64,000 bases of DNA from Escherichia coli (lineage in GTDB: Bacteria > Pseudomonadota > Gammaproteobacteria > Enterobacterales > Enterobacteriaceae). The first letter of the stretch is position 1. Every line of letters starts with the position of its first letter. The notes beneath the pieces were generated by a model. The model saw only the letters and a program-made list of their open reading frames with translations, had not been told where the DNA came from and did not search any database. Made by a program: the position numbers and the translations under genes. Below, piece after piece: positions 44,389-64,000 of the stretch. The DNA lies in the NCBI RefSeq assembly GCF_048403405.1, contig NZ_CP183129.1; one strand, 5' to 3'.

Positions 44389-44391
44389 CCT

Positions 44392-45794: not shown

Positions 45795-46835
45795 ATGAAA
45801 TCAGTGGTGAATGATACTGATGGTATCGTGCGCGTTGCAGAAAGCGTCATTCCTGAAATTAAACATCAGGATGAGGTACGGGTAAAAATTGCCAGCTCGG
45901 GCTTATGTGGTTCCGATTTACCCAGGATATTTAAAAATGGTGCACATTATTATCCAATAACGTTAGGCCATGAATTTAGCGGCTATATTGATGCGGTGGG
46001 ATCCGGTGTTGATGATTTACACCCTGGCGATGCGGTTGCCTGTGTGCCGTTATTACCCTGTTTTACTTGTCCAGAGTGTTTGAAAGGGTTTTATTCCCAG
46101 TGCGCAAAATATGATTTTATTGGCTCACGGCGTGATGGTGGGTTTGCCGAATATATTGTCGTTAAGCGGAAAAATGTCTTTGCTCTACCTGCGGATATGC
46201 CTATTGAGGATGGGGCTTTTATTGAGCCGATTACCGTTGGCCTGCATGCTTTTCATTTAGCGCAAGGTTGTGAGAATAAAAACGTTATTATTATTGGTGC
46301 CGGAACCATTGGCCTGCTGGCTATTCAGTGCGCTGTCGCGCTGGGAGCAAAGAGTGTGACGGCTATCGACATTAGCTCAGAAAAACTGGCACTGGCAAAA
46401 TCTTTCGGTGCGATGCAAACATTTAACAGCCTTGAAATGAGCGCGCCGCAAATGCAGGGCGTTTTACGCGAGCTGCGCTTTAATCAGCTTATCCTCGAGA
46501 CGGCTGGCGTCCCGCAAACCGTCGAACTGGCGGTAGAGATTGCCGGGCCTCATGCCCAGCTGGCGCTGGTGGGCACGTTGCATCAGGATTTGCATTTAAC
46601 ATCGGCAACGTTTGGCAAAATATTACGTAAAGAGCTGACGGTTATCGGCAGTTGGATGAACTACTCCAGCCCTTGGCCGGGGCAGGAGTGGGAAACGGCG
46701 AGCCGGTTGCTGACAGAACGTAAGTTAAGCCTGGAGCCATTAATCGCTCACCGTGGAAGCTTTGAAAGCTTCGCCCAGGCGGTGCGTGACATCGCTCGTA
46801 ATGCTATGCCGGGCAAAGTGTTGCTCATTCCCTGA
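45795..46835 (+). CDS. gatD: galactitol-1-phosphate 5-dehydrogenase (Zn-dependent MDR family)
   Basis: 346 aa; GHEFSG zinc-ADH motif; Rossmann GAGTIG. Confidence 0.9.
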   Translation: MKSVVNDTDGIVRVAESVIPEIKHQDEVRVKIASSGLCGSDLPRIFKNGAHYYPITLGHEFSGYIDAVGSGVDDLHPGDAVACVPLLPCFTCPECLKGFYSQCAKYDFIGSRRDGGFAEYIVVKRKNVFALPADMPIEDGAFIEPITVGLHAFHLAQGCENKNVIIIGAGTIGLLAIQCAVALGAKSVTAIDISSEKLALAKSFGAMQTFNSLEMSAPQMQGVLRELRFNQLILETAGVPQTVELAVEIAGPHAQLALVGTLHQDLHLTSATFGKILRKELTVIGSWMNYSSPWPGQEWETASRLLTERKLSLEPLIAHRGSFESFAQAVRDIARNAMPGKVLLIP

Positions 46836-46934
46836 AACCGCGGGCCAGCGTGATGCTGGCCCGGTATTGTGCAAAACAGATCATTCACCAATGGTCCCCC
46901 TTCGTTTACACTAGCCACAATTGAATATGGGTAA

Positions 46935-47714
46935 ATGACGATGAATTCATTCGAGCGAAGGAATAAGATCATCCAATTAGTGAATGAACAGGGAACCGTG
47001 CTTGTTCAGGATCTGGCGGGAGTATTTGCTGCCTCGGAAGCGACAATCCGTGCCGATTTGCGCTTTCTCGAACAAAAAGGCGTAGTTACGCGCTTTCATG
47101 GCGGTGCGGCGAAAATAATGTCCGGTAATAGTGAAACCGAGACTCAGGAAGTTGGGTTTAAAGAGCGATTTCAGCTCGCCAGTGCGCCAAAAAACAGAAT
47201 AGCGCAGGCGGCAGTCAAAATGATCCACGAAGGGATGACCGTTATTCTCGACAGCGGAAGTACCACAATGCTTATCGCCGAAGGTTTAATGACCGCCAAA
47301 AATATCACGGTGATTACCAACAGTCTCCCGGCGGCGTTTGCCCTTTCCGAAAATAAAGACATTACTCTGGTCGTCTGTGGTGGGACCGTCCGCCATAAAA
47401 CACGCTCGATGCATGGTTCCATTGCCGAGCGTTCATTGCAGGATATTAATGCCGATTTAATGTTTGTCGGTGCTGATGGTATTGATGCGGTTAATGGTAT
47501 TACGACCTTTAATGAAGGTTATTCGATTAGCGGGGCAATGGTCACAGCCGCAAATAAAGTGATTGCCGTTCTCGATTCATCGAAATTTAATCGTCGCGGT
47601 TTTAATCAGGTACTGCCAATCGAAAAAATCGACATTATTATTACCGACGATGCTGTGTCAGAGGTGGATAAACTGGCATTGCAGAAGACACGGGTGAAAT
47701 TAATTACGGTGTAG
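46935..47714 (+). CDS. gatR: DeoR-family repressor GatR (intact)
   Basis: 259 aa uninterrupted ORF (alternative ATG at 46941); N-terminal HTH, C-terminal DeoR sugar-binding region. Confidence 0.85.
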   Translation: MTMNSFERRNKIIQLVNEQGTVLVQDLAGVFAASEATIRADLRFLEQKGVVTRFHGGAAKIMSGNSETETQEVGFKERFQLASAPKNRIAQAAVKMIHEGMTVILDSGSTTMLIAEGLMTAKNITVITNSLPAAFALSENKDITLVVCGGTVRHKTRSMHGSIAERSLQDINADLMFVGADGIDAVNGITTFNEGYSISGAMVTAANKVIAVLDSSKFNRRGFNQVLPIEKIDIIITDDAVSEVDKLALQKTRVKLITV

Positions 47715-47725
47715 TATTGTTCTGT

Positions 47726-47759
47726 ATGCCGGATAAGGTTTTTACACCGCATCCGGCAT
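47726..47759. repeat. REP palindromic element
   Basis: atgccggataaggtttttacaccgcatccggcat, with inverted gccggat / atccggc arms, between convergent gatR and yegS. Confidence 0.6.
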
Positions 47760-47795
47760 TACGGATTCTCCCTGGTTCAAGAGAGAATAGTTTGA

Positions 47796-48695
47796 TTAAC
47801 GCAATAATGGACAATCTGGTGGTAATCGACAACGCAACGCCGCCGGAAGTATTTCAATATGGAAGTTTTGCCCACTCAACGGTTCGCCATCAAGATTAAA
47901 AGTGATTTCGTGTGGGGCTTGTATATCAAACCACGACGAAGCGCCTTCGATAATATTCGGGTTATCTTCGTCAGATTTTAAGGTTGATACGAGAGCTGGA
48001 AGAATTTCATCGCCGGTAAAAATGCGCAGTTGCAGCAGGCCATCGTTAATTAACGCGTTCGGGCACAATTGCTGACCGCCACCGGCCTGACGCCCGTTAC
48101 CAATACCAATGACCAGGGCGTCACCTTGCCAGTGAAAGTTTTCACCGCGGATCTCACAACGGTCCGGTTGCAGAGTATCCATGCGCATTAAGCCATGAAT
48201 GATGTAAGAGACGCCACCCAGCGCGGCTTTTAATTTTTCCGGCGTTTCTGTGGTAATACGCGTCCCAAATCCGCCTGTCGCCATATTAATAAAACAGGTT
48301 TGTTTGTTGACCTGCGCCATATCTATCGCAATGGCGTCACCGGCAATTGCCAGTTTCAGCGCCTTATCCAGTGCCTCAGGAATCCTTACACTGGTGGCAA
48401 AATCATTGGCGGTTCCTAATGGCAAAATTCCTAGCGCGGGTATGTCATCCCCCTCACACTGAATCAACGCCGTAGAAACTTCATTAATGGTGCCATCGCC
48501 ACCACCGGCAATCACCGTTGCGACGCTCAACTTCCGGGCCTCCTCTACATATCGTGCGGCATCGCCTTTCTCCCAAGTGACCCGCACATGGATCGTCATT
48601 CCTTCCTCACGCAACAGCATAATTGCTTCGCGCAATGGTAAATTGTCAGTACTTTTGCCATTAAGAATCAGTAAGCTGGCGGGAAATTCTGCCAT
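47796..48695 (-). CDS. yegS: lipid kinase YegS (DAGK catalytic domain family)
   Basis: 299 aa; GGDGT motif of the diacylglycerol-kinase-like family. Confidence 0.9.
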
Positions 48696-49109
48696 GATCG
48701 TATGTGCCTTTATGATTGGTCTGTAGATAGTGTAGAGCAGAAAAGAAAAGGTGGAGTCAGAACAGGATGAAAGTCGGAGGATAAAAAATCAGTTCAAGTA
48801 TGGAGGATTCGGTGGTTACCACCAGGAGCTTGCAATGGGGACAGTGAATGTTAACGGTAGCCATAGGTAAATTTCAAAAAAGAGCATATACCTAATATTC
48901 AACTAAACAGTGGCATCTTCAATATACTATTAAAAATATATTAACCCCCCCATGGGGTTACCCGGAAGGGCCTCCGTGTATGTAATTCCTACTTATGTAG
49001 GAAATGTTGTACAGAACATTTATTATAATCCTATTCAATTATAATAATCATGCCATTATTATATTTAAACACCAGAGCGTGTCGTTGGTATTTAATGGGG
49101 GAAGGTGAG

Positions 49110-49427
49110 ATGAAAAAGATAGCTGCTATATCATTAATTAGTATTTTTCTTATGTCTGGTTGTGCTGTGCATAATGATGAAACAAGTATCGGTAAATTTG
49201 GTCTTGCATATAAAAGTAATATTCAGCGTAAACTCGATAACCAATACTACACCGAAGCCGAAGCTTCTTTAGCCAGGGGCAGAATTTCTGGTGCAGAAAA
49301 TATAGTAAAAAATGATGCAGCTCATTTCTGTGTTACTCAGGGCAAAAAAATGCAGATAGTTGACCTGAAGACAGAAGGTGCAGGATTACATGGCGTCGCT
49401 CGTCTGACATTCAAATGTGGAGAGTGA
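49110..49427 (+). CDS. yegR: small lipoprotein-like protein YegR
   Basis: ORF 49050..49427 trimmed to the ATG at 49110 with SD (MKKIAAISLISIFLMSGCAVHN, 105 aa); lipobox MSGC. Confidence 0.7.
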   Translation: MKKIAAISLISIFLMSGCAVHNDETSIGKFGLAYKSNIQRKLDNQYYTEAEASLARGRISGAENIVKNDAAHFCVTQGKKMQIVDLKTEGAGLHGVARLTFKCGE

Positions 49428-49584
49428 GAATATTTTTTGGTAAGCGTCAAACATGCGCGTTCTGATTGTGCGTAGCCGGAACCTGTACGAGCACGATGCC
49501 GTTAAGTGAAAGGCATCGTGCTATGAAGGGGGATTCTATCGATGTGGTCAATGGAAGACGGTGACCAGGATACGGCTTATGCAT

Positions 49585-49671
49585 AAAAAATAAGCCCGTG
49601 TAAGGGAGATTACACAGGCTAAGGAGGTGGTTCCTGGTACAGCTAGCATTTTATGGGTTATGTTTTTCAGC
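49585..49671 (-). ncRNA. cyaR: CyaR (RyeE) sRNA
   Basis: Minus-strand sequence matches recalled CyaR (GCUGAAAAACAUAACCCAUAAAAUGCUAGCUGUACCAGGAACCACCUCCUUAGCCUGUGUAAUCUCCCUUACACGGGCUUAUUUUUU): terminator hairpin plus U6, anti-SD-like CCUCCUUA; adjacent to yegQ. Confidence 0.8.
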
Positions 49672-49705
49672 GAAACGGATGATAACCTTAATAAATGCAG
49701 CTGTA

Positions 49706-49721
49706 TGTGATCGGTTTCTAA
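49706..49721. promoter_or_regulatory. putative class II CRP site for the cyaR promoter
   Basis: TGTGA-N6-TCTAA centred about 42 bp upstream of the predicted CyaR 5' end; candidate -10 TATCAT at 49679-49684 on the minus strand. Confidence 0.4.
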
Positions 49722-49755
49722 GAATTTTCCATCCGGGAAAAATAATCGAAATTAA

Positions 49756-51117
49756 TCACTTACCGTGGGGGTTACGCGTGGTTTCCCCGGAGAAATTACG
49801 CATCAGGAGCGCGTAATTTAGCTCAAGATCCTGCGGCACCGGGATCCACACAGTATAACCATCGCCTGGTGCGACCGGCATAGCTTCACCTTTGGCGTTT
49901 TCCATATGCTCAAGGGTAAAGTTAATGTTGCCTTGCGGCGTCATCAGCTCAAGGCTGTCGCCAACGGAGAATTTATTTTTCACCGCTACCGCCGCGAGGT
50001 CGCCCTTGCGCTCACCGGTAAACTCACCAACAAACTGCTGGCGGTTAGAAACTGAATAACCGTATTCGTAGTTCTGATAATCGTCGTGAGTATGACGACG
50101 CAGGAAACCTTCGGTATAGCCACGATGCGCCAGACCTTCCAGAGTTTCCAGCAGGCTGGTATCGAATGGTTTGCCCGCAGCGGCATCATCGATAGCTTTA
50201 CGATAAACCTGTGCGGTGCGTGCGCAATAGTAGAAAGATTTGGTACGGCCTTCGATTTTCAGCGAATGCACGCCCATTTTGGTCAGGCGTTCTACATGGG
50301 CGATGGCGCGCAGATCTTTCGAGTTCATGATGTAAGTGCCGTGCTCATCTTCAAACGCGGTCATATACTCGCCCGGACGCTGGGCTTCTTCGATCATAAA
50401 CACTTTGTCAGTTGGTGCGCCGATACCCAGCGTCGGCTCAACATTTTGCACCGGAATCGGCTCGTACTTGTGTACGATGTTGCCAACGTCATCTTCTTTC
50501 CCTTCCTGGACGTTGTACTCCCAGCGGCAGGCGTTGGTGCAGGTGCCCTGGTTCGGGTCGCGCTTGTTGATATAGCCAGAGAGCAGGCAGCGACCGGAGT
50601 AGGCCATGCACAGCGCGCCGTGAACGAAGATCTCGATCTCCATATCCGGCACCTGATTACGAATCTCTTCAATCTCTTCCAGCGACAGCTCGCGAGAGAG
50701 GATCACGCGGGTCAGTCCCATTTGCTGCCAGAATTTCACCGTCGCCCAGTTCACGGCGTTAGCCTGTACCGAGAGATGGATCGGCATTTCAGGGAAGTGC
50801 TCGCGCACCAGCATAATCAGCCCTGGATCGGACATAATCAGCGCATCCGGCCCCATTTCCACCACCGGTTTCAGGTCACGGATAAAGGTTTTCAGCTTGG
50901 CGTTGTGCGGTGCAATGTTGACCACGACATAAAACTTTTTCCCCAGCGCATGGGCTTCATTAATGCCGAGCTGAAGATTTTCGTGGTTGAATTCGTTGTT
51001 GCGCACACGCAGGGAGTAACGTGGCTGGCCCGCATAAACAGCATCTGCGCCATAAGCGAAAGCGTAACGCATATTTTTCAGCGTTCCCGCCGGGGAAAGG
51101 AGTTCCGGTTTAAACAT
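49756..51117 (-). CDS. yegQ: peptidase U32-family protein YegQ (TrhP, tRNA U34 hydroxylation)
   Basis: 453 aa; U32 family features including a Cys-rich segment (CMAYSGRCLLSGY). Confidence 0.9.
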   Translation of the reverse strand: MFKPELLSPAGTLKNMRYAFAYGADAVYAGQPRYSLRVRNNEFNHENLQLGINEAHALGKKFYVVVNIAPHNAKLKTFIRDLKPVVEMGPDALIMSDPGLIMLVREHFPEMPIHLSVQANAVNWATVKFWQQMGLTRVILSRELSLEEIEEIRNQVPDMEIEIFVHGALCMAYSGRCLLSGYINKRDPNQGTCTNACRWEYNVQEGKEDDVGNIVHKYEPIPVQNVEPTLGIGAPTDKVFMIEEAQRPGEYMTAFEDEHGTYIMNSKDLRAIAHVERLTKMGVHSLKIEGRTKSFYYCARTAQVYRKAIDDAAAGKPFDTSLLETLEGLAHRGYTEGFLRRHTHDDYQNYEYGYSVSNRQQFVGEFTGERKGDLAAVAVKNKFSVGDSLELMTPQGNINFTLEHMENAKGEAMPVAPGDGYTVWIPVPQDLELNYALLMRNFSGETTRNPHGK

Positions 51118-51264
51118 AATTCTCTCGTTCTGATGACAGGTCAGATCCGCTTCACCTGATGAAGCGGCCAGGGGAGTGCCCCCACTTTAAGGGCGGGCAT
51201 TGTAGCGCTGTAGGGGGGAGCTGGTAAAGCGCCAGACGCCAACAACACGCGCCCGGCATCGTAA

Positions 51265-51597
51265 TTACGTATTGTCTTTCACCGTCTGGCTTGTGCCATT
51301 GGCTTTAACGGAGGCAATTCCGGTTTCACGAGATTGCGCGGTGGCGTACATCTGGCTGGAGCCGATAATTTGATGATTGGCGGCTTTCAGATTGAAATAG
51401 AATTTGCCGTTGCTTGCCGTTTTTTTCTCATAGCGTTCTTCTTGCGGGCTGTTGCTACGCACCGACGCGATACCCTTTTCCGCAGAGGCTTTTGAGGTAT
51501 ACAGCTCGCTGGTGAGGATAGTCTCACCATTGCCCGCTTTTAGCACAAACCGGAACTGATTATCACTGCTCTTACTGAGTTCAAACCAACCAGCCAT
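51265..51597 (-). CDS. yegP: UPF0339/DUF1508 protein YegP
   Basis: ORF 51265..51636 trimmed to the ATG at 51597 with AAGGAG SD (MAGWFELSKSSDNQFRF, 110 aa); two tandem DUF1508-like repeats. Confidence 0.85.
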   Translation of the reverse strand: MAGWFELSKSSDNQFRFVLKAGNGETILTSELYTSKASAEKGIASVRSNSPQEERYEKKTASNGKFYFNLKAANHQIIGSSQMYATAQSRETGIASVKANGTSQTVKDNT

Positions 51598-51776
51598 AAT
51601 GACTCCTTGATTGAAATTGCGTATCGAAAACAGCATCTAAAGGTACTGTTTGCCAATTAAAGTATGAGCGATTTTCTGGTGCCTGCCAGGGCGGAGAGAT
51701 CATGTCAGTTTGCTGACCATGCGTGGGATAATGTTGCCGGATCTGGTCTGAAGGCCATCTCCGGCAGGTAAAAATG

Positions 51777-52499
51777 TTAAACGATGCGGCAGGCGTCGGC
51801 TTCCCAGCGGTAACCGACGCCGTAAACGGCACGGATAAAGGACTGTTCGGCGTCGAGAGATTCCAGCTTGCGACGCAGGTTTTTAATGTGGCTGTCGATG
51901 GTGCGGTCGGTTACTACGCGGTAGTCGTCATAAAGATGATTGAGCAATTGCTCGCGGGAGAACACTTTTCCTGGTTCATGAGAGAGCGTTTTCAGCAGAC
52001 GAAATTCCGCAGGCGTCAGGTCAAGCATTTTTCCGCGCCATGAAGCCTGAAAACGACCTTCGTCGATAATCAACGGGCTTTCAGCATCCTGTTGCTGCAA
52101 CTCACGCTGCGGTTTGCAACGGCGCAAAATGGTTTTGACGCGCGCTACCACTTCCCGTGGGCTGTACGGCTTGCAGATATAATCATCTGCGCCAATTTCC
52201 AGCCCCAGCAGGCGGTCGATCTCTTCGATTTTTGCTGTCACCATCACGATCGGAATGTCAGAAAAACGACGAATTTCCCGACACAGCGTCAGGCCATCGG
52301 TGCCAGGGAGCATCAGATCCAGCAGGATCAGATCCGGTGGTGTCTGGCGCACATACGGCAGTACCTGATCGCCGTGGCTAATCAACGTTGGCGCATAGCT
52401 CGCAGCACGCAGATAATCAATGAGTAACTGCCCCAGCTTCGGTTCATCTTCCACGATCAAAATACGCGGTGTGTTTTCGTCGATTGGTAACTCGGTCAT
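51777..52499 (-). CDS. baeR: OmpR-family response regulator BaeR
   Basis: 240 aa; receiver domain plus winged-helix output; start overlaps the baeS stop. Confidence 0.95.
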
Positions 52500-53899
52500 A
52501 CTTCTCTCTGTAAATCCCGTTCCAGCGGTAACTCTACTGTAATGCTTACCCCGCCAAAAGGCGAATGGGCAGCAATAATGCGGCCATTATGTGCTTCAAC
52601 AATGTTCAGGCAAATCGCCAGCCCCAGCCCGGAACCGCCGCTGGCACGGTTGCGGGAGCCTTCGGTGCGATAAAAACGTTCAAACAATTTTTGTAGTTGA
52701 TCGTCACTGACACCCGGCGCACTGTCGGCAAAGGTCAGGCGCACCGTTTTGTCGTGCTGCCCGGCAGAGATTTTCAGGCTGCCGCCGCTGTCAGTGTAGC
52801 GCAGGCTGTTTTCAAGTAAGTTATTGAATAACTGCATTAAACGGTCGCGATCGCCAAATACAGTAATACTGTCTGGCAGGGAAAATTGCAGTTTCAGGCC
52901 ACGGCTGGCGAATCGTTCGCGAAATGCGCCGCCCGCCACTTCCAGCAGTGGGATCAAATCTACCGGTGCTTTTTGATAGGCGAGAGCGCCTTCATCAGAC
53001 ATCGACAACTGATGAAGATCGTCAACCAGTTTGGTCAGTGTACCGACCTCCGCCTGTAAAGACGCCACCGTCTCCGGCGTGAATTTACGCACGCCATCCT
53101 GAATGGCTTCCAGTTCACCGCGCAGCACCGCTAATGGCGTACGCAGTTCGTGAGAAATATCGGCCATAAAATCGCGCCGCATTTGCTGGTTTTTCTCCAG
53201 CGTGCTGGCAAGCTGGTTGAAGTCTTGCGCCAGTTTGCCCAGTTCATCTTCACTGGTGGGCGTTACGCGGGTAGTGAAATCGCCCGCCGCCAGTTTGTGC
53301 GTGCCGTCCACCAGCCGTTTTACCGGTGCCAGCAAACCACGCGCCAGCAGAAAGGTAGCGAGTGCCGCGAGTAACGTTGCCAGAGCGACAATCAGCCAGC
53401 TGGTTTGCCGCTGTTGTTTATCGAAATTGATATCAGTATTGCGGGTCAGTCGCTCAACAGGGGAGGCAATCACCGCGCCCACTTCCGCACCGTTGACCAG
53501 AATGGGTCGCCGTGTACCGTCAGGTGGAATCGGCGCTCGCGGACCAACCAGCACTTTGTTGTTTTGATCAACCACCCAGAACTGGGTACGCCAGCCGTGC
53601 GGTGGCATACCCGGGCCGGGTTTATCTTCCGAATTATCGTGTTCAAATGAACGCAGGATCTGAAAGACAAAGCGATCATTGTTGCGCAGGAAGCGCCAGT
53701 TGCCATGCTGCGCATACTGCTCGCCAAGCGCATCACTTAACAGTTGTAATCGCTGTTCATTACCATGCTTGATGTAATCAATAAAGCCACGCTCAAAACT
53801 GATACGCACCGCCCAGTGCATACTGATCAGCAAGACAATGCAGGTGGCGAAAATCGCCAGAAACAGTTTGCCGGTAATACCGGGTCGCCAGAACTTCAT
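52496..53899 (-). CDS. baeS: envelope-stress sensor histidine kinase BaeS
   Basis: 467 aa; two TM segments, HAMP, H-box [10 protein letters not shown], ATPase G-box. Confidence 0.95.
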
Positions 53900-55311
53900 T
53901 GCGCGCTCCTTTTTCGCCGCGAAATAGCTACATTTTGATGCGTATCGTTCGGCACTCTGGCAAAGATGAACGCCGGAAGGGCAATGATAAACGCCATGCT
54001 AAGCCAGGTGTACATAAAGACGGTTTGTGTGGTGCCGCTGTCGACGCTGACATGCTGCGAACCAAAAAGTCCCAGCAACAGCCCGGCGATGGTGACGCCG
54101 ATACTCATCGACAATTGCATAATCATCGACAGCAGGCTGTTTCCGCTGCTCGCCAGATTGTCCGGGAGATCTTTCAGCGTCAGGGTGTTCATGGAGGAGA
54201 AACGCGTCGAGTTGACCATCCCTTGTAAAAACAGGACGAACGGCAAAACGTAGTACCAGCCCAGCAGGGCGGTAGTCATAAACAACAGGGTGACCAGCGA
54301 CAGACCCAGCGTGGTCGCCACCAGTACCCGACGATAACCAAAGCGATTCACCACCTGTACCACAATTCGCTTCATCCCCATGCTGCCGAGCACCATCGGG
54401 ATCATCATCAGTCCGGCATGAAACGGTGAGAAGCCAAGGCCAATTTGCAGGAAAACCGGCGTCATAAAGGGCAACATGCCGCTACCGATACGTCCGGCAA
54501 AACTCCCCGCCAGGCCCAGCGAAAAGGTACGAGTACGGAACAGTTTCAGACTGAAAAGAGCGCGGTTGTTATTTCTGGCGTGCAGCAGATAAAGCACCAG
54601 TGCTACCACGCCAACTGCGACCAGGCCAGCAATCGCCAGCGGCGATAAACCTGTACCTTTACTGCCGTCCAGCGCCAGGGTTAATACCGCCATGCCAACC
54701 GCCAGCAATAAAAAGCCGAAGAGATCAAAGCGCCGCGTCTGCATGGTGTAGTTCGGCATTAACATCAGTGTGGCGATCGCACCGATAATCCCCACCGGAA
54801 TGTTGATCAAAAAGATCCAGTGCCAGGAGGCGTACTCCACCAGCAGGCCGCCGAGCGCCGGACCGAGCAGCGGCCCGACCTGACCGGGTAACGTGACAAA
54901 GGTCATCGCCGCCATATATTGCTCGCGCGGTACGATTTTCATCACCGTCAACCTGCCGACCGGCACCATCATCGCACCGCCAACGCCCTGTAACGCGCGT
55001 GCCAGCAACAGTTCGTTCAGCGTGCCGGAAAGCGCGCAAAACAGTGAACCGAGAGTAAACAGCACGATGGCGGTAAAGAAAATATTGCGCACGCCGACTT
55101 TGTCCGCCAGCCAGCCGCTGGCAGGCAACATCACCGCCACGGTCAGCACATAAGAGACAATGACCATGTGCATATGCAACGGACTTTCCCCGAGGCTTTG
55201 CGCCATTGAGGGAAGGGCGGTGTTAACGATGGTGGTGTCCAGCGACTGCATAAAGAAGCCGAAAGCCACAATCCACAATTGCCAGCGGGTGCTGTCGGGA
55301 AGATCTGTCAT
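53896..55311 (-). CDS. mdtD: MFS transporter MdtD
   Basis: 471 aa; 14-TM-like MFS; overlaps the baeS start. Confidence 0.9.
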
Positions 55312-58300
55312 TTACTCGGTTACCGTTTGTTTAGGTTTACGCGAAAAACGCAGCCGCAGACGGTCGAAAAAGAGATACACCACCGGCGTGGTATACAGCG
55401 TCAGGAGCTGACTCATTACCAGACCGCCGACAATGGTGATCCCCAGGGGTTGCCGCAGCTCCGAGCCGTCACCGCCCGACAATACCAGCGGCAGCGCGCC
55501 AAACAGTGCTGCCAGGGTGGTCATCATAATCGGGCGAAAACGCAGCAGACAGGCCTGGAAAATAGCTTCCTGCGGCGTCAGGTTACCGTGCCGTTGGGCT
55601 TCAAGCGCAAAATCGACCATCATAATGGCGTTTTTCTTCACGATGCCGATTAATAGCATGATCCCTATCAGGGCGATTAGGCTGAACGGGGCATTGAACA
55701 GCTCCAGCGCCAGCAGCGCTCCAACGCCCGCCGAGGGCAGGGTGGAGAGAATCGTCAGCGGATGTACGTAACTCTCGTAAAGGATACCCAGCACGATATA
55801 CACCGTGGCGATGGCGGCGATAATCAGGATCACCTGCGAGTTCATCGTCTCCTGGAATACCTGCGCCGTGCCGGCAAAACTGCCGCGCACCGTCGAAGGC
55901 ACGCCAAGTTGCGTCATTGCGCGATCGATCGCCGCACTGGCGTCCGAGAGCGATTTCCCGGTCGGCAGGTTGAACGAGATGGTCGAGGCTGCCGATAATC
56001 CCTGATGATTCACCGATAGTGGGGCATTCGCCGGTTGCCATTTAGCGAAATACGACAGCGGGATCGCTTTTCCTTCGTTATTGATAACGAACATTTTTTC
56101 CAGCGCGCTGATGTCCTGGGTATAGCGCGGATCCACTTCCATCACCACTTTATACTGGTTCATCGGCTGGTAAATGGTCGAGATTTGCCGCTGACCGAAG
56201 GCGTTATTTAAAAGGCTGTTGGCGGCCTGTACATCGATTCCCAGCCGTGCCATGGTGTCGCGGTCGTAAACCAGATTCATCTCCGCGCCGTTATCCTGCT
56301 GATCGGAGTTCACGTCCGCCAGTTCCGGCAACGTCGCCAGTTTTTTGCGGATTTTCGGCTCCCATTCGCGCAGTGCCGCCAGGTCGTCGGATAACAACGT
56401 GTACTGGTAGCTGGCGTTCGACTGACGCCCACCAACGCGAATATCCTGTACCGCCATCAGGAACAGATTCGCCCCCGGTTCTTTCGCCAGTTTTACGCGC
56501 AGACGGTCGATAATTTGCTGCGCCGTTTCGCTGCGTTCGTCGCGTGGCTTGAGGGTGATAAACATCATCCCACTGTTCACCCGCGAACCGCCGGTAAAGC
56601 CGGTGACATTATCCACCGCCGGATCGTCACGGATAATTTTCATAAAATCCTGCAACTTACCGCGCATCGCCTGAAACGAAATACTCTGATCCGCCTGTAT
56701 CCCGCCCATCAACACGCCGGTGTCCTGCTCCGGGAAGAAGGTTTTCGGGATCGAGATATACAGCCAGATATTCAGCGCAATGGTGCCAAGCAGCACCACG
56801 CCCACCAGACGGGTATGATTGAGCACCCATTTCAGCGACTTGCCATAGCCTTGTTGCAGGGCTACCAACATGCGACCAAAACCACGCAGTCGCTTTTGCT
56901 CGCGCGGCTTGCTGGCTTTCAGCATCCAGCCACACATCATCGGCGTTAGCGTCAGGGAAACCAGCAACGAAATACCAATGGCGACAGAAAGCGTCACGGC
57001 AAACTCGCGTAACAGTCGGCCCGGCAATCCGCCCATCAACAGCAGCGGTAGGAACACCGCCACCAGTGACAGACTCATCGACAGCACCGTAAAACCGACT
57101 TCGCGAGTACCTTGTAGCGCGGCCTGTAGCGGTTTCATCCCCGCTTCCAGATGACGGGCAATGTTTTCCAGCACCACGATGGCGTCATCCACCACAAAGC
57201 CAGTGGCGATGGTGAGCGCCATTAACGAAAGGTTATTGAGACTGAATCCGCACAGGTACATCGCCGCAAACGTACCAATCAGCGAAACCGGCACCGCAAC
57301 GGCGGGAATAATAGTGGCGCGACCCGAGCGCAGGAATAAAAAGACCACCAGAATCACCAGCGCCACCGAGATAATCAGCGTTTGCTCGACTTCTTCCAGC
57401 GAGGCGCGAATGGTGGGGGAGCGATCCTGGGCAATTTGCAGATCAATTGCCGCCGGAATGGTTTCCTGCAACTCCGGTAATTTTGCCCGGATGCTGTCAA
57501 CCGTCTGGATAATATTGGCTTCCGGCAGCTTGCGGATCATCAGCAAAATAGCCGGTTTGGCGTTGGTCATCCCGGCGTTGCGCACATCCTGCACCGAGTC
57601 GGTCACCGTCGCCACATCGCCCAGACGAACCGCGCCGCCGTTGTTGTAATGAATAATCAGCGGCTGATATTCAGCGGCGGTTTTTAGCTCATCGTTGGTC
57701 TGGATCTGCCAGCGGTGAGTGCTATCTTCCAGCGCCCCCTGCGGTTTACGCACGTTGGCATTGCTGATGGCGCTGCGCACATCGTCCAGCGACACGCCCT
57801 GATTAAACAGCGCCTGCGGATTCAGCCCGACGCGTACGGCGGGCAGCGAGCTGCCGCCAACATCGACATCACCGACACCGTCGATTTGCGAAATCGTCGG
57901 AGCCAGCTGCGTCGAGGCGAAATCGTACAGTTCACCCTGCGAATAAGTATCGGACGTTAGCGTGAGGATCATAATTGGCGCATCCGACGGGTTCGCTTTG
58001 CGATAGGTCGGGCGGCTGGGCATCCCGCTGGGCAGCAAACTTTGTGCAGCGTTGATCGCCGCCTGCACATCGCGCGCTGCGCCGTTGATATCCCGGTCAA
58101 AATCAAACTGCAAAATAATGCGCGTGCTGCCGAGCGAACTACTGGAGGTCATTTCACTAACCCCGGCAATGCGCCCAAGTGAGCGCTCCAGCGGCGTGGC
58201 AACGGAAGACGCCATTGTTTCTGGTGACGCACCGGGCAGCGAGGCGCTGACCATAATCACCGGAAAATCGACCTGCGGCAGCGGGGCGACCGGCAGCATA

Positions 58301-58389
58301 CGGAAGCCCAGTATGCCGCACAGGGTAATGGCGACCGACAGTAAAATCGTCGCCACCGGGCGGTAAATGAAGAGGGCAAAAAACTTCAC
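55312..58389 (-). CDS. mdtC: RND multidrug efflux pump subunit MdtC
   Basis: 1025 aa; RND permease; adjacent to mdtB with no gap. Confidence 0.95.
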
Positions 58390-61300
58390 TTACGCCTCCT
58401 CTTCATGACGGGCAAAGCGGCTTTTGGTCCACAATGCCAGGCGGTCGAATAGCAGATAAATCACTGGCGTGGTAAACAGAGTCAGCACCTGGCTGACAAT
58501 CAGACCGCCGACCATGCCGATACCTAACGGACGACGCAGTTCCGCGCCGACCCCGGTACTCAACATCAGCGGCAGCGCGCCAAGCAGTGCCGCCAGAGTG
58601 GTCATCAGGATCGGACGAAAACGCAACAGACAAGCCTGGTAAATAGCTTCGCGCGGCGACATGCCTTGCTCGCGCTCAGCAGCCAGCGCGAAGTCGATCA
58701 TCATGATGGCGTTCTTCTTCACGATACCGATTAGCAAAATAATGCCGATAATTGCAATCACATCCAGTTCGCTACCGGCAATCATTAACGCCAGCAGTGC
58801 GCCGACCCCTGCGGTGGGTAGCGTCGAGAGAATGGTGATCGGGTGAATAAAGCTCTCGTACAGAATGCCGAGCACGATATACATCGCCACCACCGCCGCG
58901 ACAATCAGCCAGACAGTGCTGCCCAGCGCCGACTGGAAGGCGAGGGTGCTGCCCTGGAACTGCGTGGTGATATCCACTGGCAGATTCAGCGTCTTTTCGG
59001 TGTCCATAATCGCCTGCACCGCATCGCCCAGCGAATAGTTATCCGGTACGTTAAAGGAGATGGTCGTTACCGGGAACTGATCCAGATGGTTGATGGAAAG
59101 CGGCGCAAAACGCTGCTCAATTTTGGCAATTGAGCTTAACGGCACCACGCCACCGTCGCTGCTGGTCAGGCGAATGGTATCCAGCGCCGCAAGCCCTGGG
59201 GTATTTTCGGTATTGTGCTCCAGCACCACGCGATACTGGTTGGCCTGAGTATAAATGGTGGAAATCAGCCGCTGACCAAACGCGTTGTACAGGGCGTTAT
59301 CGACATCCGCCATACTGATCCCCAGACGGCTGGCGCTGTCCCTGTCGACATTGACATACGCCACCAGCCCTTTGTCCTGCCAGTCGCTGGAGACATCAGA
59401 AAGCTGTGGCAGCTGCTGGAGTTTTTCCATCAACTGTGGCACCCAGGTACTGAGCGCATCCAGTGACGTGGCCTGCAAGGTAAACTGGTACTGGGTGCGG
59501 CTGACCTGAGTATCGATGGTCAGGTCCTGCGTTGGTTGCAGGAAGAGATCGACGCCCGGCACTTTATCCACCGCCGTTTGCAGACGGGCGATGACTTTTT
59601 GCACCCGGTCATCTCGTTCATCCAGTGGTTTGAGGTTGATCTGCAAACGCGCACTGTTCAGCGACGGGTTAGTGCCATCAACGCCAACAAATGAGGTCAG
59701 GCTTTGCACTGCCGGATCCTGCAAAATCACATCCGCGACCTGGCGTTGCCGCTGGGCCATATTGGCAAAGGAGCTGGATTGCGGTGCCTGCAAAGTGCCC
59801 TGAATAATGCCGTTGTCCTGTACCGGGAAGAAACCTTTCGGAATGAATACCCACAAGAGAACACTAAGCAGCAGCGTGCTGAGTGCCACGCTTAAGGTCA
59901 GCCACGGATGATTCAGCACTTTCGCCAGTCCACGACCATAGGCGGCGATTATCCTGTCGAACATTTTCTCCGAGGCTCGGGAGAAGCGATTCTGTTTACG
60001 CAGCGACTCCTGGCTGAGCATCCGCGCGCACATCATCGGCGTCAGAGTCAGCGACACCACGGCTGAGATCAAAATCGCGACTGCCAGAGTAATAGCAAAT
60101 TCGCGGAACAGTCGCCCGACGATATCGCCCATAAATAGCAGTGGGATCAACACTGCAATCAGTGAGAAGGTCAGCGAGATAATGGTAAAGCCGATTTCAC
60201 CCGCGCCTTTGAGCGCCGCCGCCAACGGTTTTTCGCCTTTTTCGATATAGCGGGAAATGTTTTCGATCACCACGATGGCGTCATCGACCACAAATCCGGT
60301 GGCGATAGTTAACGCCATCAGCGTCAGGTTATTGATTGAAAAATCGAGAAACACCATGACCGCGAAGGTGCCGATTAACGACAGCGGCACTGCGACGCCG
60401 GGAATGATAGTCGCCGGAATATTACGCAAAAACAGGTAGATAATCATGACTACCAGCGCGATAGCCATCATCAATTCAAACTGAGTATCATCGACGGATG
60501 CGCGAATATTGGTGGTACGGTCAGAAAGTACCGTCACTTTTACCGATTTCGGCAAACTCTCGGTGAGTTGTGGCAGCATCTGCCGGATGCTGTCGGCGGT
60601 GGAGATAATGTTAGCACCGGGCTGGCGCTGAACATTCATCACGATGGCCTGTTCTTTGTTCGCCCACGCGCCGAGCCAGCTGTTTTCTGCGCCTTGTTCT
60701 ACGGTTGCGACATCGCCAAGACGAATCGGCGCGCCGTTCTGGTAGGCGATGATCAGCTGGCGATACTCTTCGGCGGATTGCATCTGGTCGTTCGCGGAAA
60801 GCGTGACCGCACGGGAAGGGCCGTCGAGGCTACCTTTTGCCGAGTTAACGTTAGCGCCGGTAATAGCGGTGCGCACGGTTTCGCTGGTCAGGCCGAGGGC
60901 GGCAATCGCCTGAGCGTTAAGTTTGACACGAACAGCCGGACGCTGGCCGCCGGAAAGCGTCACCAGGCCGACACCGGAAATCTGCGAGATTTTCTGCGCG
61001 ACGCGGGTTTCCACCATATCTTCCACTTGCGTCATTGGCATGGCGGTTGAGGTGACGGCGAGCGTCATGATTGGTGGATCTGCCGGGTTCACTTTGCTGT
61101 AAACCGGCGGGTTAGGCAGATCGCTCGGCAACAAGTTGGTCGCAGCGTTAATCGCGGCCTGCACTTCCTGCTCGGCGACATCCAGCGGTAATGTTAGCTG
61201 GAACTGTAAGGTGATAACTGACGCACCGCCGGAACTTTGCGACGACATCTGTTTCAGGCCAGACATCTGCCCAAACTGGCGTTCAAGCGGCGCGGTAACG

Positions 61301-61512
61301 GCAGAGGTCATGACATCCGGGCTCGCACCTGGGTAGAGCGTGACTACCTGAATGGTCGGATAGTCCACTTCCGGCAGCGCCGAAACGGGCAGGGCTCTAT
61401 AACCGATAATCCCAGCGAGTAAGATCGCCACCATCAGCAGCGTGGTGGCGACAGGACGCATAATAAACAGGCGCGACGGGCCGCCTGTGCTGCTCGGGGG
61501 TAACACCTGCAT
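58390..61512 (-). CDS. mdtB: RND multidrug efflux pump subunit MdtB
   Basis: 1040 aa; RND permease paralogous to MdtC. Confidence 0.95.
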
Positions 61513-62759
61513 CAGGAGCGTGCTCCTTTTTTCGCGTATTCGCGGCTGGTGGCTTTCTCTTCCGGAGTGGTGGCGCTCTGGGCTTCCACTACTTCCACTT
61601 TCGCCCCTTCGGTCAGGCGATCAATGCCGTCTGTCACTACGCGGTCGCCCGCAGAAATACCTGCGCGGATCACCACTTTCTGACTGTCCTGAATGCCCGG
61701 CGTCACCAGATGTTTGCTGACCTTGTTTTCGCTATTCAGCACCCAGACAAAATGGCCTTCGTTGCCCATTTGCAGAGCGGCGGTGGGGATCACCACGGCG
61801 TTTTGTTCGGTGTCGACTAACATACGCGCGTTAACAAACTGATTGGGAAACAGCGCATCATCCTGATTATTAAAGCGTGCTTTCACTTTAATCGTACCGG
61901 TAGTGGCATCGATTTGGTTATCGAGGCTTAACAGCGTGCCTTCACTTAATTTCTTCGAGTTGGTGCGATCCCAGGCTTCTACCACCAGCGGTTTTCCGGT
62001 TTTTTGCGCCTGTACTACGGTAGCGATATCGCTTTCCGGCAGGGTAAAGAGCAAATCGATAGGATGCGTCTGGGTGATCACCACAATCCCGGTGGTATCA
62101 CCACTGGAGATTTGGTTACCAACATCAACCTGCTTGAGACCAACGCGACCATCGATTGGTGCGGTGATGCGGCTCCAGTCGAGCTGCAGCTGCGCGCTGG
62201 CGACGCTTGCTTCATCAGCCTTAATGGTGCCTTCGGTTTCACTGACCAGCGCCTGTTGGGCATCCAGCTCCTGGCGGGAGACAAGATTGGTTTTTGCCAG
62301 TTGTTGATAACGCGCCAGGTCACGGCGGGCGTTGGCAAGCGTGGCTTTATCTTTTGCCAGTTGGCCCTGGGCTTGTGCTAATGCAACTTTGAACTGGCTT
62401 GGGTCAATTTCTGCCAGTAAATCGCCTGCTTTGACCTGCTGGCCTTCCTGGAAATGTAACGCCATCAGTTGACCGTCCACGCGGCTGCGCACCGTAACGG
62501 TATTAGCGGCGGTAATGGTGCCAAGCCCGGTGAGATAACGTGGCACAGCTTGTTCTACGGCAGTCGCCGCCTGAACCGGGGCTAATGGGCCGGCACGCAT
62601 ACCACGGCGACCACCCGCTGGCGATTGCTGCGCTTGTTTCGTCGCCCCTGGGGCTGCACTCTGGGAGTCATTGCGGCCTTGCCAGAACCAGAATGCGGCG
62701 ATGGCGGCGATAACCAACACGATTACGATTACCCAACGGGATTTATAACTGCCTTTCAT
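61512..62759 (-). CDS. mdtA: RND efflux membrane fusion protein MdtA
   Basis: ORF 61512..62906 trimmed to the ATG at 62759 ([14 protein letters not shown]..., 415 aa); TM anchor then periplasmic adaptor domains. Confidence 0.9.
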
Positions 62760-62812
62760 CGTTAAGAGTTTCTCTTCCTGAAACGTTTCACGGAATGATA
62801 CTAGTGTAGCCA

Positions 62813-62830
62813 GCCAATAAGGGAGAAAAA
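62813..62830 (-). promoter_or_regulatory. BaeR box upstream of mdtA
   Basis: Minus strand reads TTTTTCTCCCTTATTGGC, matching the recalled BaeR consensus TTTTTCTCCATDATTGGC; about 55 nt upstream of the mdtA start. Confidence 0.65.
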
Positions 62831-62984
62831 TGGAGGAATTATGAAACACTGTCGGGAATCGTCTGAATGACGGGCACATTTGCGAGCACGCATCCAGTAA
62901 TAACACATGAAACTATTTTATCTGCAAGTTAGCGATAGACTGCTTGCATGGCGAAAGGAGGTAAGCCGCCGTTTTCAGCGGGAC

Positions 62985-63130
62985 GCTGAAACGGGAAAGC
63001 CCCTCCCGAGGAAGGGGCCTTAAATAAGGAAAGGGTCATGATGAAGCTACTCATCATCGTGGTGCTCTTAGTGATTAGCTACCCAGCATACTAAGACTAC
63101 CAGGGCGGGGGAAACCCCGCTCTACCCTCA
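62985..63130 (-). ncRNA. sibB: Sib-family antisense sRNA, copy 1 (approximate bounds)
   Basis: Candidate minus-strand promoter TTGACA (63160-63165), 17-nt spacer, TACTTT (63137-63142); transcript would cover the whole ibs ORF and SD in antisense. Ends are estimated. Confidence 0.45.
63038..63094 (+). CDS. ibsB: Ibs-family 18-aa hydrophobic toxin (IbsB-like)
   Basis: Not in the ORF track (below its size cut-off). atgatgaagctactc... encodes MMKLLIIVVLLVISYPAY; SD aaggaaaggg upstream. Confidence 0.75.
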   Translation: MMKLLIIVVLLVISYPAY

Positions 63131-63312
63131 CTCCTGAAAGTATGCCTTCACGATAAGATTGTCAATCTGCAGGCTTTGCAGTCTGCGATCCTGCCAGCAA
63201 ATATTCTTTGCGAGACGTTACGCAATAATCACACTGGAAACTATTTTATCCGCAAGTCAGCGATAGACTGCATACAGGGCGAAAGGAGGTAAGCCGACGA
63301 TTTCAGCGGGAC

Positions 63313-63458
63313 GCTGAAACGGGAAAGCCCCTCCCGAGGAAGGGGCCTTAAATAAGGAAAGGGTCATGATGAAGATACTCATCATCGTGGTGCTCTTAGT
63401 GATTAGCTACCCAGCATACTAAGACTACCAGGGCGGGGGAAACCCCGCTCTACCCTCA
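63313..63458 (-). ncRNA. Sib-family antisense sRNA, copy 2 (approximate bounds)
   Basis: Same promoter elements shifted by 328 bp (TTGACA at 63488-63493 on the minus strand). Confidence 0.45.
63366..63422 (+). CDS. Ibs-family 18-aa toxin, second IbsB-like copy
   Basis: MMKILIIVVLLVISYPAY; differs from copy 1 by L4I. Confidence 0.75.
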   Translation: MMKILIIVVLLVISYPAY

Positions 63459-63644
63459 CTCCTGAAAGTATGCCTTCACGATAAGATTGTCAATCCGCAG
63501 GCTTTGCAGTCTGCGATCCTGCCAGCAAATATTCTTTGCGAGTCGTTACGCAATAATCACAGAGGAAACTATTTTGGTCACGCGTTAGCGATAGACTGCA
63601 TTCAGGGCGAAAGGAGGTAAGCCGACGATTTCAGCGGGACGCTG

Positions 63645-63793
63645 AAACGGGAAACCCTCTCCCGGAGAAGAGGGCTTTTAATAAGGAAAGGGTTATGATG
63701 AAGCACGTCATCATACTGGAGATACTCTTAGTGATTAGCTTCCAGGCTTACTAAGAACACCAGGGGGAGGGAGAAACCTCTCCCTAACCCTCA
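63645..63793 (-). ncRNA. sibA: Sib-family antisense sRNA, copy 3 (approximate bounds)
   Basis: TTGACA at 63823-63828 on the minus strand; the -10 region has diverged (TAATTT-like); antisense to the third ibs ORF. Confidence 0.4.
63695..63754 (+). CDS. ibsA: Ibs-family 19-aa toxin (IbsA-like variant)
   Basis: MMKHVIILEILLVISFQAY; same leader context; carries a Glu in the hydrophobic core. Confidence 0.65.
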   Translation: MMKHVIILEILLVISFQAY

Positions 63794-63974
63794 CTCCTGA
63801 AATTATGTCACTCCGCCCTTAGTGTCAATCGACGGCTCTCCGTTCTTGCGAGGCGAATAGCAAAATTTTCTGCGCCGCCGGGCCTAATTCTGAAAGTTTC
63901 TTCGTTTGCTCTTATTTCATTATTGCAATCGGTATGATACCGGGCCTCAATAATTCTCTAAGAAAGGATTTCTT

Positions 63975-64000
63975 ATGAGCGAACAAATCACGTTTGCCAC
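63975..64000 (+). CDS. 5' end of an unidentified ORF truncated by the window edge
   Basis: ATG at 63975 preceded by AAGGA SD at 7-nt spacing; reads MSEQITFA...; only 26 nt are visible. Confidence 0.35.

What the first reader, a model, noticed from the sequence alone, without database searches (positions are those of the whole stretch)
63695..63754. IbsA-like copy carries a glutamate inside the hydrophobic helix
The third toxin ORF reads ...HVIIL-E-ILLVIS..., placing a charged residue mid-helix in an otherwise fully hydrophobic peptide, whereas I recall IbsA having Val there. Its cognate antisense promoter -10 is also more degenerate than in units 1 and 2. Together these suggest an attenuated or decaying toxin-antitoxin copy.
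Basis: partly seen in the sequence, partly recalled or inferred. Interest (0 to 1): 0.35.

Follow-up and report, generated by a model that had tools for sequence, protein, structure and literature searches.

The report
Rare Glu9 allele of IbsA toxin
This is the well-known E. coli ibsA/sibA toxin-antitoxin gene pair carrying a rare single-letter change that puts a charged glutamate in the middle of the tiny membrane toxin; it probably weakens the toxin, but the rest of the module is intact, so it is an ordinary natural variant rather than a decaying gene.

Summary
The ORF at 63695-63754 does encode MMKHVIILEILLVISFQAY. K-12 IbsA has Val9 (GTG), so the change is one T-to-A at 63720. The window is E. 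coli, at the mdtA / ibs-sib / yegL locus.

The Glu allele is real but rare. It occurs in 15 of 5,426 complete E. coli genomes, against 4,458 with the Val sequence. It arose once: a second private SNP (63772A) is present in exactly the same 15 genomes. Recombination has since placed it next to several different flanks and neighbouring units.

In 45 distinct intact Ibs peptides from other Enterobacteriaceae, position 9 of the 39 19-residue forms is V, I or A. None has a charged residue in the core.

The sibA promoter is base-for-base identical to K-12's, and its -10 is no worse than in units 1 and 2. This SibA copy has the highest Rfam score of the three (145.9 bits). Shine-Dalgarno, start, stop and terminator are intact.

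Verdict: a probably attenuated toxin allele (untested) in an otherwise intact, known type I module. There is no sign of locus decay. Low interest.

The parts
63695..63754 (+). ibsA ORF (19 codons plus stop), encoding MMKHVIILEILLVISFQAY
   Evidence: Translation. It is orthologous in position (between mdtA and yegL) and sequence to K-12 ibsA b4667. RefSeq annotates the identical ORF as ibsA, WP_072146903.1.
63719..63721 (+). Codon 9, GAG (Glu). The derived T-to-A SNP is at 63720; the common allele is GTG (Val).
   Evidence: Alignment A2. The GAG 35-mer is in 15 of 5,426 genomes and the GTG 35-mer in 4,458.
63683..63692 (+). Shine-Dalgarno region AAGGAAAGGG of ibsA, complementary to the SibA region homologous to TRD2
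   Evidence: Identical to K-12 in alignment A2. The TRD2 concept comes from PMC2943612.
63649..63792 (-). SibA antitoxin RNA (144 nt), fully overlapping ibsA
   Evidence: Rfam SIB_RNA RF00113 at 145.9 bits against a gathering score of 56. The ends were transferred from the MG1655 annotation of sibA b4436 through alignment A3.
63800..63828 (-). sibA promoter: -35 TTGACA (63823-63828) and -10 region CATAATTT (63800-63807) preceded by TG
   Evidence: Read directly from the sequence. The string TTGACACTAAGGGCGGAGTGACATAATTTCAGGAG is identical in the window, K-12 and FDAARGOS_1290. The simple promoter scan misses it because the spacer to CATAAT is 15 nt.
63656..63675 (-). SibA terminator hairpin (CCCTCTTCTCCGGGAGAGGG followed by TTT)
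   Evidence: Predicted as a hairpin in every fold. The same inverted repeat is listed on the + strand by the scan.
63772..63772 (.). Second private SNP (G to A), in perfect linkage with Glu9. It lies at SibA +21 in the 5' hairpin loop, which is the 3' hairpin of the ibsA mRNA.
   Evidence: Present in all 15 Glu genomes. Its 35-mer is found in exactly those 15 genomes and no others.
63023..63165 (-). Unit 1: SibB-like RNA opposite the IbsB-like ORF 63038-63094 (MMKLLIIVVLLVISYPAY)
   Evidence: Rfam 141.6 bits; ORF.
63351..63493 (-). Unit 2: SibB-like RNA opposite the IbsB-like ORF 63366-63422 (MMKILIIVVLLVISYPAY)
   Evidence: Rfam 140.8 bits; ORF.

Best explanation
The feature is the chromosomal ibsA/sibA type I toxin-antitoxin module of E. 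coli. It is the third of three tandem ibs-sib units between mdtA and yegL. It carries a rare, single-origin missense allele, Val9 to Glu (GTG to GAG, T-to-A at 63720).

Shown:
- The module is otherwise intact. The 144-nt SibA RNA is encoded antisense across the whole ibsA reading frame and ribosome-binding site, as in K-12.
- The SNP changes both RNAs in a complementary way, so their pairing is preserved.

Inferred:
- SibA is still made and still represses ibsA, because its promoter is unchanged and the cis pairing is kept.
- The charged Glu in the centre of the 12-residue hydrophobic core makes the 19-residue peptide insert into the inner membrane less well. That would make it a weaker toxin or a non-toxic one.
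- Such an allele is close to neutral, because in K-12 ibsA is the one ibs gene whose expression without its cognate Sib is tolerated. It has therefore persisted and been carried by homologous recombination into several lineages.
For: Identity of the module:
- Rfam SIB_RNA at 145.9 bits, the best of the three units.
- Same synteny as K-12, and a 332-nt unit that is 98.2% identical to K-12's.
- The sibA promoter, Shine-Dalgarno sequence, start and stop are identical to K-12.

The allele is derived, rare and arose once:
- 15 of 5,426 genomes carry it, against 4,458 with Val.
- All 15 share the private SNP 63772A, which is found nowhere else.
- The closest Val haplotype (FDAARGOS_1290) differs at only 3 of 332 positions.

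Spread by recombination:
- The carriers' mdtA/mdtB flanks differ by about 2%.
- Neighbouring units differ, and one carrier has only 2 units.
- One carrier (AF39) has a different yegL side.
- Two clonal relatives of the window strain have a K-12-type replacement at this locus.

A charged core residue is abnormal for the family:
- In the 39 distinct 19-aa peptides, position 9 is V in 30, I in 8 and A in 1. None of the 45 distinct intact peptides has a charged residue at 5-16.
- The neighbouring IbsB-like units vary only conservatively.
- The reverse complement of the Rfam consensus also encodes Val at codon 9.
- The summed Hessa core energy goes from -4.46 to -1.47 kcal/mol (scale values recalled from memory).

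Literature:
- The hydrophobic centre of IbsC determines toxicity, and at least 10 hydrophobic residues are needed (PMC9860968, PMC8309996).
- ibsA expression in cells lacking ibsA/sibA has no effect on survival (PMC2943612).
Against: - No toxicity measurement exists for the Glu9 peptide.
- The IbsC sequence tolerates extensive mutation, and even frameshifted products stay toxic (PMC7192591).
- An alanine scan of Salmonella IbsA found only H3 and L11 essential (bioRxiv 10.1101/2025.05.26.656083).
- Glu9 IbsA still has 10 hydrophobic residues at positions 5-16, the reported minimum.
- A buried Glu can be protonated or can drive helix association.
- The allele has spread across divergent backgrounds, which a useless allele need not do.
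- The primary mutagenesis paper (Mok 2010, PMC3009890) and Fozo 2008 (PMC2597788) were not available to read.
Confidence: 0.6

Rival explanations
1. Glu9 IbsA is still a functional toxin, as toxic as wild type or with altered properties. The mid-helix carboxylate would be protonated or buried in a helix-helix or helix-target interface, so the allele is a functional variant rather than a hypomorph.
For: - IbsC is very tolerant to mutation and frameshift (PMC7192591).
- Only two positions are essential in the alanine scan of Salmonella IbsA, and position 9 is not one of them.
- Ten hydrophobic core residues remain.
- Other type I toxins such as TisB and ZorO use charged residues functionally (titles and abstracts).
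- The haplotype persists undamaged in 15 genomes across at least 4 flanking backgrounds.
Against: - No charged residue occurs at positions 5-16 in 45 distinct natural Ibs peptides.
- The hydrophobic centre is reported as the toxicity determinant.
- Ala substitutions say little about Glu.
- On a helical wheel (100 degrees per residue, my own inference) residue 9 lies roughly opposite L11 and H4, on the side more likely to face lipid.
- The allele's frequency is only 0.3%.
Confidence: 0.3
2. The change matters at the RNA level. The T-to-A at 63720, together with the linked G-to-A at 63772, alters SibA or ibsA mRNA structure or stability, and the amino-acid change is a by-product.
For: - The SNP removes the basal CUGGUG/CACCAG helix under the TRD1-bearing stem-loop. 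Predicted SibA MFE goes from -58.5 to -54.8 kcal/mol.
- With both SNPs, the approximate ibsA mRNA goes from -66.6 to -58.7 kcal/mol.
- Two private SNPs lie within 52 nt inside the overlapping transcripts, in perfect linkage.
Against: - The SNP maps to SibA +73 (SibC +74). That is 6 nt past TRD1 and 25 nt before TRD2, the only regions shown to be needed for repression.
- Predicted pairing probability of the TRD-homologous regions is unchanged.
- The Rfam-annotated base pairs are unaffected, and the model score is the highest of the three units.
- Cis-encoded complementarity is preserved automatically.
- Two SNPs in 332 nt is no more than expected for a haplotype whose flank is 2.3% diverged from all others.
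Confidence: 0.07
3. The Glu codon is a sequencing or assembly error in this window.
For: It is a single-base difference from the reference.
Against: The identical 35-mer is present in 15 independently sequenced complete genomes from Japan, the USA, Italy, Spain, the UK and Australia (the two NRZ14408 records give no country). It is always linked to a second private SNP.
Confidence: 0.01

Closest known systems
E. coli K-12 ibsA/sibA (b4667/b4436), a type I toxin-antitoxin module; Rfam RF00113 SIB_RNA
   Same: - Same locus, between mdtA and yegL.
- Same architecture: a 19-codon ORF fully overlapped by a 144-nt antisense RNA.
- Identical sibA promoter, Shine-Dalgarno sequence, start and stop.
- 98.2% identity over the 332-nt unit.
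   Different: - Val9 to Glu in the toxin.
- Five other non-coding SNPs within the 332-nt unit: 63576, 63577, 63626, 63655 and 63772.
- Three tandem units here, against two in K-12.
IbsC of E. coli K-12, the experimentally dissected Ibs toxin (Mok et al. 2010, cited through PMC8309996, PMC9860968 and PMC7192591)
   Same: A 19-residue peptide of the same family with the same MM(K/R)xVIIL...LL.IS..AY layout. Toxicity is attributed to the hydrophobic centre and the C-terminus.
   Different: IbsC has Ile at position 9 (MMRLVIILIVLLLISFSAY). No natural or reported IbsC variant that I could read about carries an acidic residue there. The primary paper could not be read.
Salmonella IbsA (bioRxiv 10.1101/2025.05.26.656083)
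   Same: A 19-residue Ibs toxin repressed by a cis-antisense SibA. It is proposed to act through the Fo a and b subunits of ATP synthase, and an alanine scan shows most positions are tolerant.
   Different: It sits at a different locus (yqiK-rfaE). Only Ala substitutions were tested, and no charged core residue.
Decayed ibs copies in other Enterobacteriaceae, found here
   Same: They are members of the same repeat family that have departed from the hydrophobic consensus.
   Different: Those copies show unambiguous damage. Two have frameshifts (L076, L115). Two have lost the stop codon (L080, L084), and L080 also has Arg in the core. The window copy has one missense change only and is otherwise intact.

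Membership tests
Ibs/Sib type I toxin-antitoxin module (Rfam RF00113 SIB_RNA plus Ibs toxin) | An antisense small RNA that matches the SIB_RNA covariance model above its gathering score | tested here: met
   145.9 bits against a gathering score of 56, full-length match to model positions 1-147, on the minus strand at 63680-63828.
Ibs/Sib type I toxin-antitoxin module (Rfam RF00113 SIB_RNA plus Ibs toxin) | An 18-19-codon ORF on the opposite strand, wholly inside the Sib transcript, starting MM(K/R) and ending S-x-x-(A/T)-(Y/F) | tested here: met
   MMKHVIILEILLVISFQAY. The ORF 63695-63754 lies inside SibA 63649-63792. The pattern matches the 45 family peptides.
Ibs/Sib type I toxin-antitoxin module (Rfam RF00113 SIB_RNA plus Ibs toxin) | An uninterrupted hydrophobic core (residues 5-14), taken to be the transmembrane helix | tested here: not met
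   Glu is at position 9. None of the 45 distinct intact Ibs peptides sampled has a charged residue at 5-16, and position 9 of the 39 19-aa forms is V30/I8/A1.
Ibs/Sib type I toxin-antitoxin module (Rfam RF00113 SIB_RNA plus Ibs toxin) | A Shine-Dalgarno and start region complementary to the Sib target-recognition region, and a functional Sib promoter | tested here: met
   Both are identical in sequence to K-12 sibA/ibsA. Actual promoter activity was not measured.
Ibs/Sib type I toxin-antitoxin module (Rfam RF00113 SIB_RNA plus Ibs toxin) | The peptide is toxic on overexpression and its toxicity is repressed by the cognate Sib RNA | not testable with these tools
   This needs an induction assay. 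No literature on the Glu9 peptide was found.
Ortholog of K-12 ibsA specifically | Same chromosomal position and near-identical nucleotide sequence | tested here: met
   The mdtA / ibs units / yegL-pphC synteny holds in the window's exact match GN02461 and in K-12. Identity over 332 nt is 98.2%. RefSeq gives it the gene name ibsA but the generic product name 'Ibs family toxin'.

The most novel reading that the evidence does not exclude
Glu9 IbsA is a gain- or change-of-function toxin. In this reading, a mid-membrane carboxylate changes how the peptide oligomerises or which membrane target it engages. One candidate target is the proton path of the Fo sector, which Salmonella IbsA is reported to bind. 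The ibsA(Glu)-yegL-yegD block, identical across lineages that are otherwise about 2% diverged, would then reflect positive selection rather than hitch-hiking.
Probability: 0.08. Interest if true: 0.5.

Novelty: already known. Interest (0 to 1): 0.15.

Why it matters
It matters little as it stands. The module is textbook ibsA/sibA, and the variant peptide is already catalogued in RefSeq (WP_072146903.1), although it is not discussed in any paper I could search.

Its modest value is as a ready-made natural experiment. It is a single, charge-introducing substitution in the centre of a 19-residue membrane toxin. It is available in sequenced clinical isolates such as MS 69-1, GN02461 and NRZ14408.

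It could be used to ask whether Ibs toxicity needs an unbroken hydrophobic helix, or instead a specific protein interface as recently proposed for Salmonella IbsA.

The locus also illustrates how tandem ibs-sib repeats act as recombination junctions.

Tried and rejected
Tools that could not be used on the peptide:
- The protein-database tools refuse a 19-residue query: the listing of cluster members (minimum 20 aa) and the search for homologous proteins (minimum 40 aa).
- By their stated limits the family HMM scan and structure prediction would refuse it too, so no HMM, cluster or structure evidence on the peptide was possible.

Papers that could not be read:
- Mok et al. 2010 (PMC3009890 / PMID 20980267) and Fozo et al. 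2008 (PMC2597788) are not held.
- Statements about IbsC mutagenesis therefore come from secondary citations.

Scans with limits:
- The simple promoter scan found no sib promoter, because the TTGACA-to-CATAAT spacer is 15 nt. I read the promoters by eye and by identity to K-12 instead.
The pattern also forces codons 1, 2, 6 and 7. The family survey of 45 peptides is therefore a sample, not a census.

Hypotheses considered and rejected:
- Independent recurrence of the Glu mutation. Rejected because all carriers share 63772A.
- Gene conversion from a paralogous ibs copy. Rejected because no sampled paralogue has A at the second position of codon 9.
- A compensatory RNA pair between 63720 and 63772. 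Rejected because they do not pair with each other in any predicted fold.

I did not determine the ibsA promoter or transcription start. The ibsA mRNA ends used for folding are extrapolated from ibsC.

Full report
**What is at the coordinates**

The last 1.25 kb of the window lies between the start of mdtA (minus strand, ending at 62759) and the start of yegL (63976). It holds three tandem repeat units of about 328 nt.

- Each unit matches the Rfam family SIB_RNA (RF00113) on the minus strand, far above the gathering score of 56 bits. The matches are 63023-63165 (141.6 bits), 63351-63493 (140.8 bits) and 63680-63828 (145.9 bits).
- Each unit carries a tiny ORF on the plus strand. These are 63038-63094 (MMKLLIIVVLLVISYPAY), 63366-63422 (MMKILIIVVLLVISYPAY) and 63695-63754 (MMKHVIILEILLVISFQAY).
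- The window is E. coli. The last 20 kb is 100% identical to five complete genomes, including GN02461 and MS 69-1.
- RefSeq annotates the third ORF there as ibsA, WP_072146903.1.

**Checking the observation**

The Glu is real. Codon 9 is GAG (63719-63721).

- A 35-mer centred on GAG can only be found by megablast if that base is present. It occurs in 15 of 5,426 complete E. coli genomes.
- The same 35-mer with GTG occurs in 4,458 genomes.
- The remaining genomes carry a more divergent Ibs unit at this position, 84-88% identical.

The second part of the observation does not hold. On the minus strand the sibA promoter reads TTGACACTAAGGGCGGAGTGACATAATTTCAGGAG. Units 1 and 2 read TTGACAATCTTATCGTGAAGGCATACTTTCAGGAG.

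- With a 15-nt spacer the -10 is CATAAT (5 of 6, with an upstream TG), against CATACT (4 of 6).
- The 17-nt spacer fits the MG1655-annotated SibA 5' end, which maps to window 63792. With it the -10 is TAATTT against TACTTT.
- Either way unit 3 is not worse.
- All three strings are identical to the K-12 sibA and sibB promoters.

**What differs from the common allele**

Over the 332-nt unit the window differs from the closest Val-bearing genome examined (FDAARGOS_1290) at three positions. These are 63577 (G/T, upstream), 63720 (A/T, the Glu/Val change) and 63772 (A/G). It differs from K-12 at six positions. The Shine-Dalgarno sequence, the ATG ATG start, the stop codon, the SibA terminator hairpin and the sibA promoter are unchanged.

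**Population structure**

I fetched all 15 Glu-carrying loci.

- All 15 share 63720A and 63772A. They split 8/7 on 63577 G/T.
- The 63772A 35-mer is found in exactly the same 15 genomes and nowhere else.
- The two SNPs are therefore in perfect linkage, and the Glu allele arose once.

The allele sits at the edge of a distinctive haplotype.

- The 4.9 kb to the right (yegL-pphC-yegI-yegD, without yegJ) is at least 99% identical in exactly 14 genomes. These are the Glu carriers minus AF39.
- The next best genome is only 97.7% identical.

To the left, the carriers fall into several groups.

- Their mdtA/mdtB regions differ by about 2%.
- Their neighbouring IbsB-like units differ: YPAY, WPAY or FPAY endings, and residues 4-5 LL, IL or WI.
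- One carrier (GMF065) has two units rather than three.
- AF39 carries the Glu unit with a different right flank.

The window's own clonal lineage is seven complete genomes. Two of them (3059 and TUM14771) have a K-12-type two-unit, Val-bearing locus with the K-12-type yegL-yegJ side.

The tandem ibs-sib repeats are thus a recombination junction. The Glu haplotype has been moved among backgrounds without acquiring further damage.

**How unusual Glu is for the family**

Genera included Citrobacter, Escherichia albertii and E. whittamii, Salmonella, Kluyvera, Pluralibacter, Pseudocitrobacter and Leminorella.

- Among 45 distinct intact 18-19-residue peptides, none has D, E, K, R or H at positions 5-16.
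- Position 9 of the 39 19-residue forms is V in 30, I in 8 and A in 1.
- The reverse complement of the Rfam consensus also encodes Val at codon 9.
- Clearly decayed copies exist elsewhere. Two have frameshifts (L076, L115) and two have lost the stop codon (L080, L084); L080 also has Arg in the core.
- That is what decay looks like in this family. The window copy does not look like that.

**Expected effect on the peptide (inference)**

I used central-position Hessa et al. 2005 apparent free energies, with the values recalled from memory.

- The core VIILVILLVISF sums to -4.46 kcal/mol. VIILEILLVISF sums to -1.47 kcal/mol.
- The penalty is therefore about 3 kcal/mol, and the hydrophobic run is split into 4 and 5 residues.

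Reviews of the IbsC mutagenesis say that the hydrophobic centre and the C-terminus determine toxicity. They also say about 10 hydrophobic residues are the minimum (PMC8309996, PMC9860968). Glu9 IbsA sits exactly on that minimum.

Some findings point against a strong effect.

- IbsC tolerates extensive mutation, and even frameshifted products stay toxic (PMC7192591).
- The alanine scan of Salmonella IbsA found only H3 and L11 essential.

Attenuation is therefore likely but not certain. I put it at about 0.6.

**Expected effect on the RNAs**

I mapped the SNP onto the MG1655 SibA annotation and aligned SibA with SibC.

- The SNP is SibA +73, equivalent to SibC +74.
- That is 6 nt beyond TRD1 (+46 to +68) and 25 nt before TRD2 (+99 to +115). 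These are the two regions shown to be sufficient for repression (PMC2943612).
- ViennaRNA predicts loss of a basal CUGGUG/CACCAG helix beneath the TRD1-bearing stem-loop. SibA MFE goes from -58.5 to -54.8 kcal/mol.
- Overall architecture and the pairing probability of the TRD-homologous regions are unchanged.
- The approximate ibsA mRNA loses about 8 kcal/mol with both SNPs.
- Because the antitoxin is cis-encoded, complementarity is preserved.

I see no reason to expect loss of repression. A modest effect on RNA stability cannot be excluded.

**Why a weakened ibsA could persist**

In K-12, ibsA is the exception among ibs genes. Cells lacking SibA are viable, and expression of ibsA in a strain lacking ibsA/sibA had no effect on survival. 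This was attributed to cross-recognition by another Sib RNA (PMC2943612). Loss of IbsA toxicity should therefore cost little, which fits a rare, near-neutral allele riding on a recombining haplotype.

**Comparison with what is known, and novelty**

This is the known ibsA/sibA module at its known locus.

- The membership tests for the Sib RNA, ORF layout, synteny and regulatory sequences are all met.
- The one family feature that fails is the uninterrupted hydrophobic core.
- The variant protein already has a RefSeq accession.
- I found no paper mentioning it.

I rate it as already known, with a minor undocumented allele, and low interest (0.15).

The most novel reading not excluded is that the mid-membrane carboxylate confers an altered function and that the block's spread reflects selection. 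I give that about 8%.

**Limits**

- No tool here accepts a 19-residue protein.
- The two primary papers were unavailable.
- The family survey is a sample.
- The ibsA transcript ends are extrapolated from ibsC.
- Toxicity can only be settled at the bench.

Noticed in passing
window 62760-63975; loci L002, L003, L017: The number of tandem ibs-sib units at the mdtA-yegL locus varies between strains. K-12 and GMF065 have 2, the window has 3 and FDAARGOS_1290 has 4. The IbsB-like peptides differ only conservatively: residues 4-5 are LL, IL or WI, and residue 15 is F, Y or W.
   Followed up: partly
right of the window end; L006:5060-9990: The yegL-pphC-yegI-yegD block next to the Glu allele lacks yegJ. 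It is at least 99% identical in exactly 14 of 5,426 genomes and no more than 97.7% identical in all others. Those 14 genomes differ by about 2% elsewhere. This is a distinctive haplotype of unknown origin, shared across lineages.
   Followed up: partly
L018 and L019 compared with window 44001-64000: Two clonal relatives of the window strain (TUM14771 and 3059) are identical to it up to mdtA. From the ibs units onward they carry a K-12-type two-unit locus and a K-12-type yegL-yegJ-yegI side. This is a recombination breakpoint inside the ibs-sib repeats.
   Followed up: partly
window 63577: A G/T polymorphism splits the Glu carriers 8/7. It lies about 118 nt upstream of the ibsA start codon, possibly in the unmapped ibsA promoter region. 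K-12 has AT at 63576-63577 where the window has GG.
   Followed up: no
window 10181-10256 (-): Rfam OrzO-P antitoxin RNA (RF02083, 101.3 bits). A second type I toxin-antitoxin locus of the zor-orz type is therefore present in the same window.
   Followed up: no
window 49588-49673 (-) and 33318-33414 (+): CyaR/RyeE small RNA (100.7 bits) and a TPP riboswitch (71.8 bits), both above their gathering scores.
   Followed up: no
L076, L080, L084, L089, L094, L115: Damaged or atypical ibs copies occur in other Enterobacteriaceae. Frameshifts: L076 and L115. Arg10 plus stop loss: Citrobacter sedlakii, L080. Stop loss: L084. Gln13: Salmonella arizonae, L089. Pro11: Citrobacter braakii, L094.
   Followed up: no
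RefSeq annotation of L001 compared with L002: RefSeq (PGAP) keeps the gene name ibsA for the Glu allele but gives it the generic product name 'Ibs family toxin'. The Val allele gets 'toxin IbsA'.
   Followed up: no
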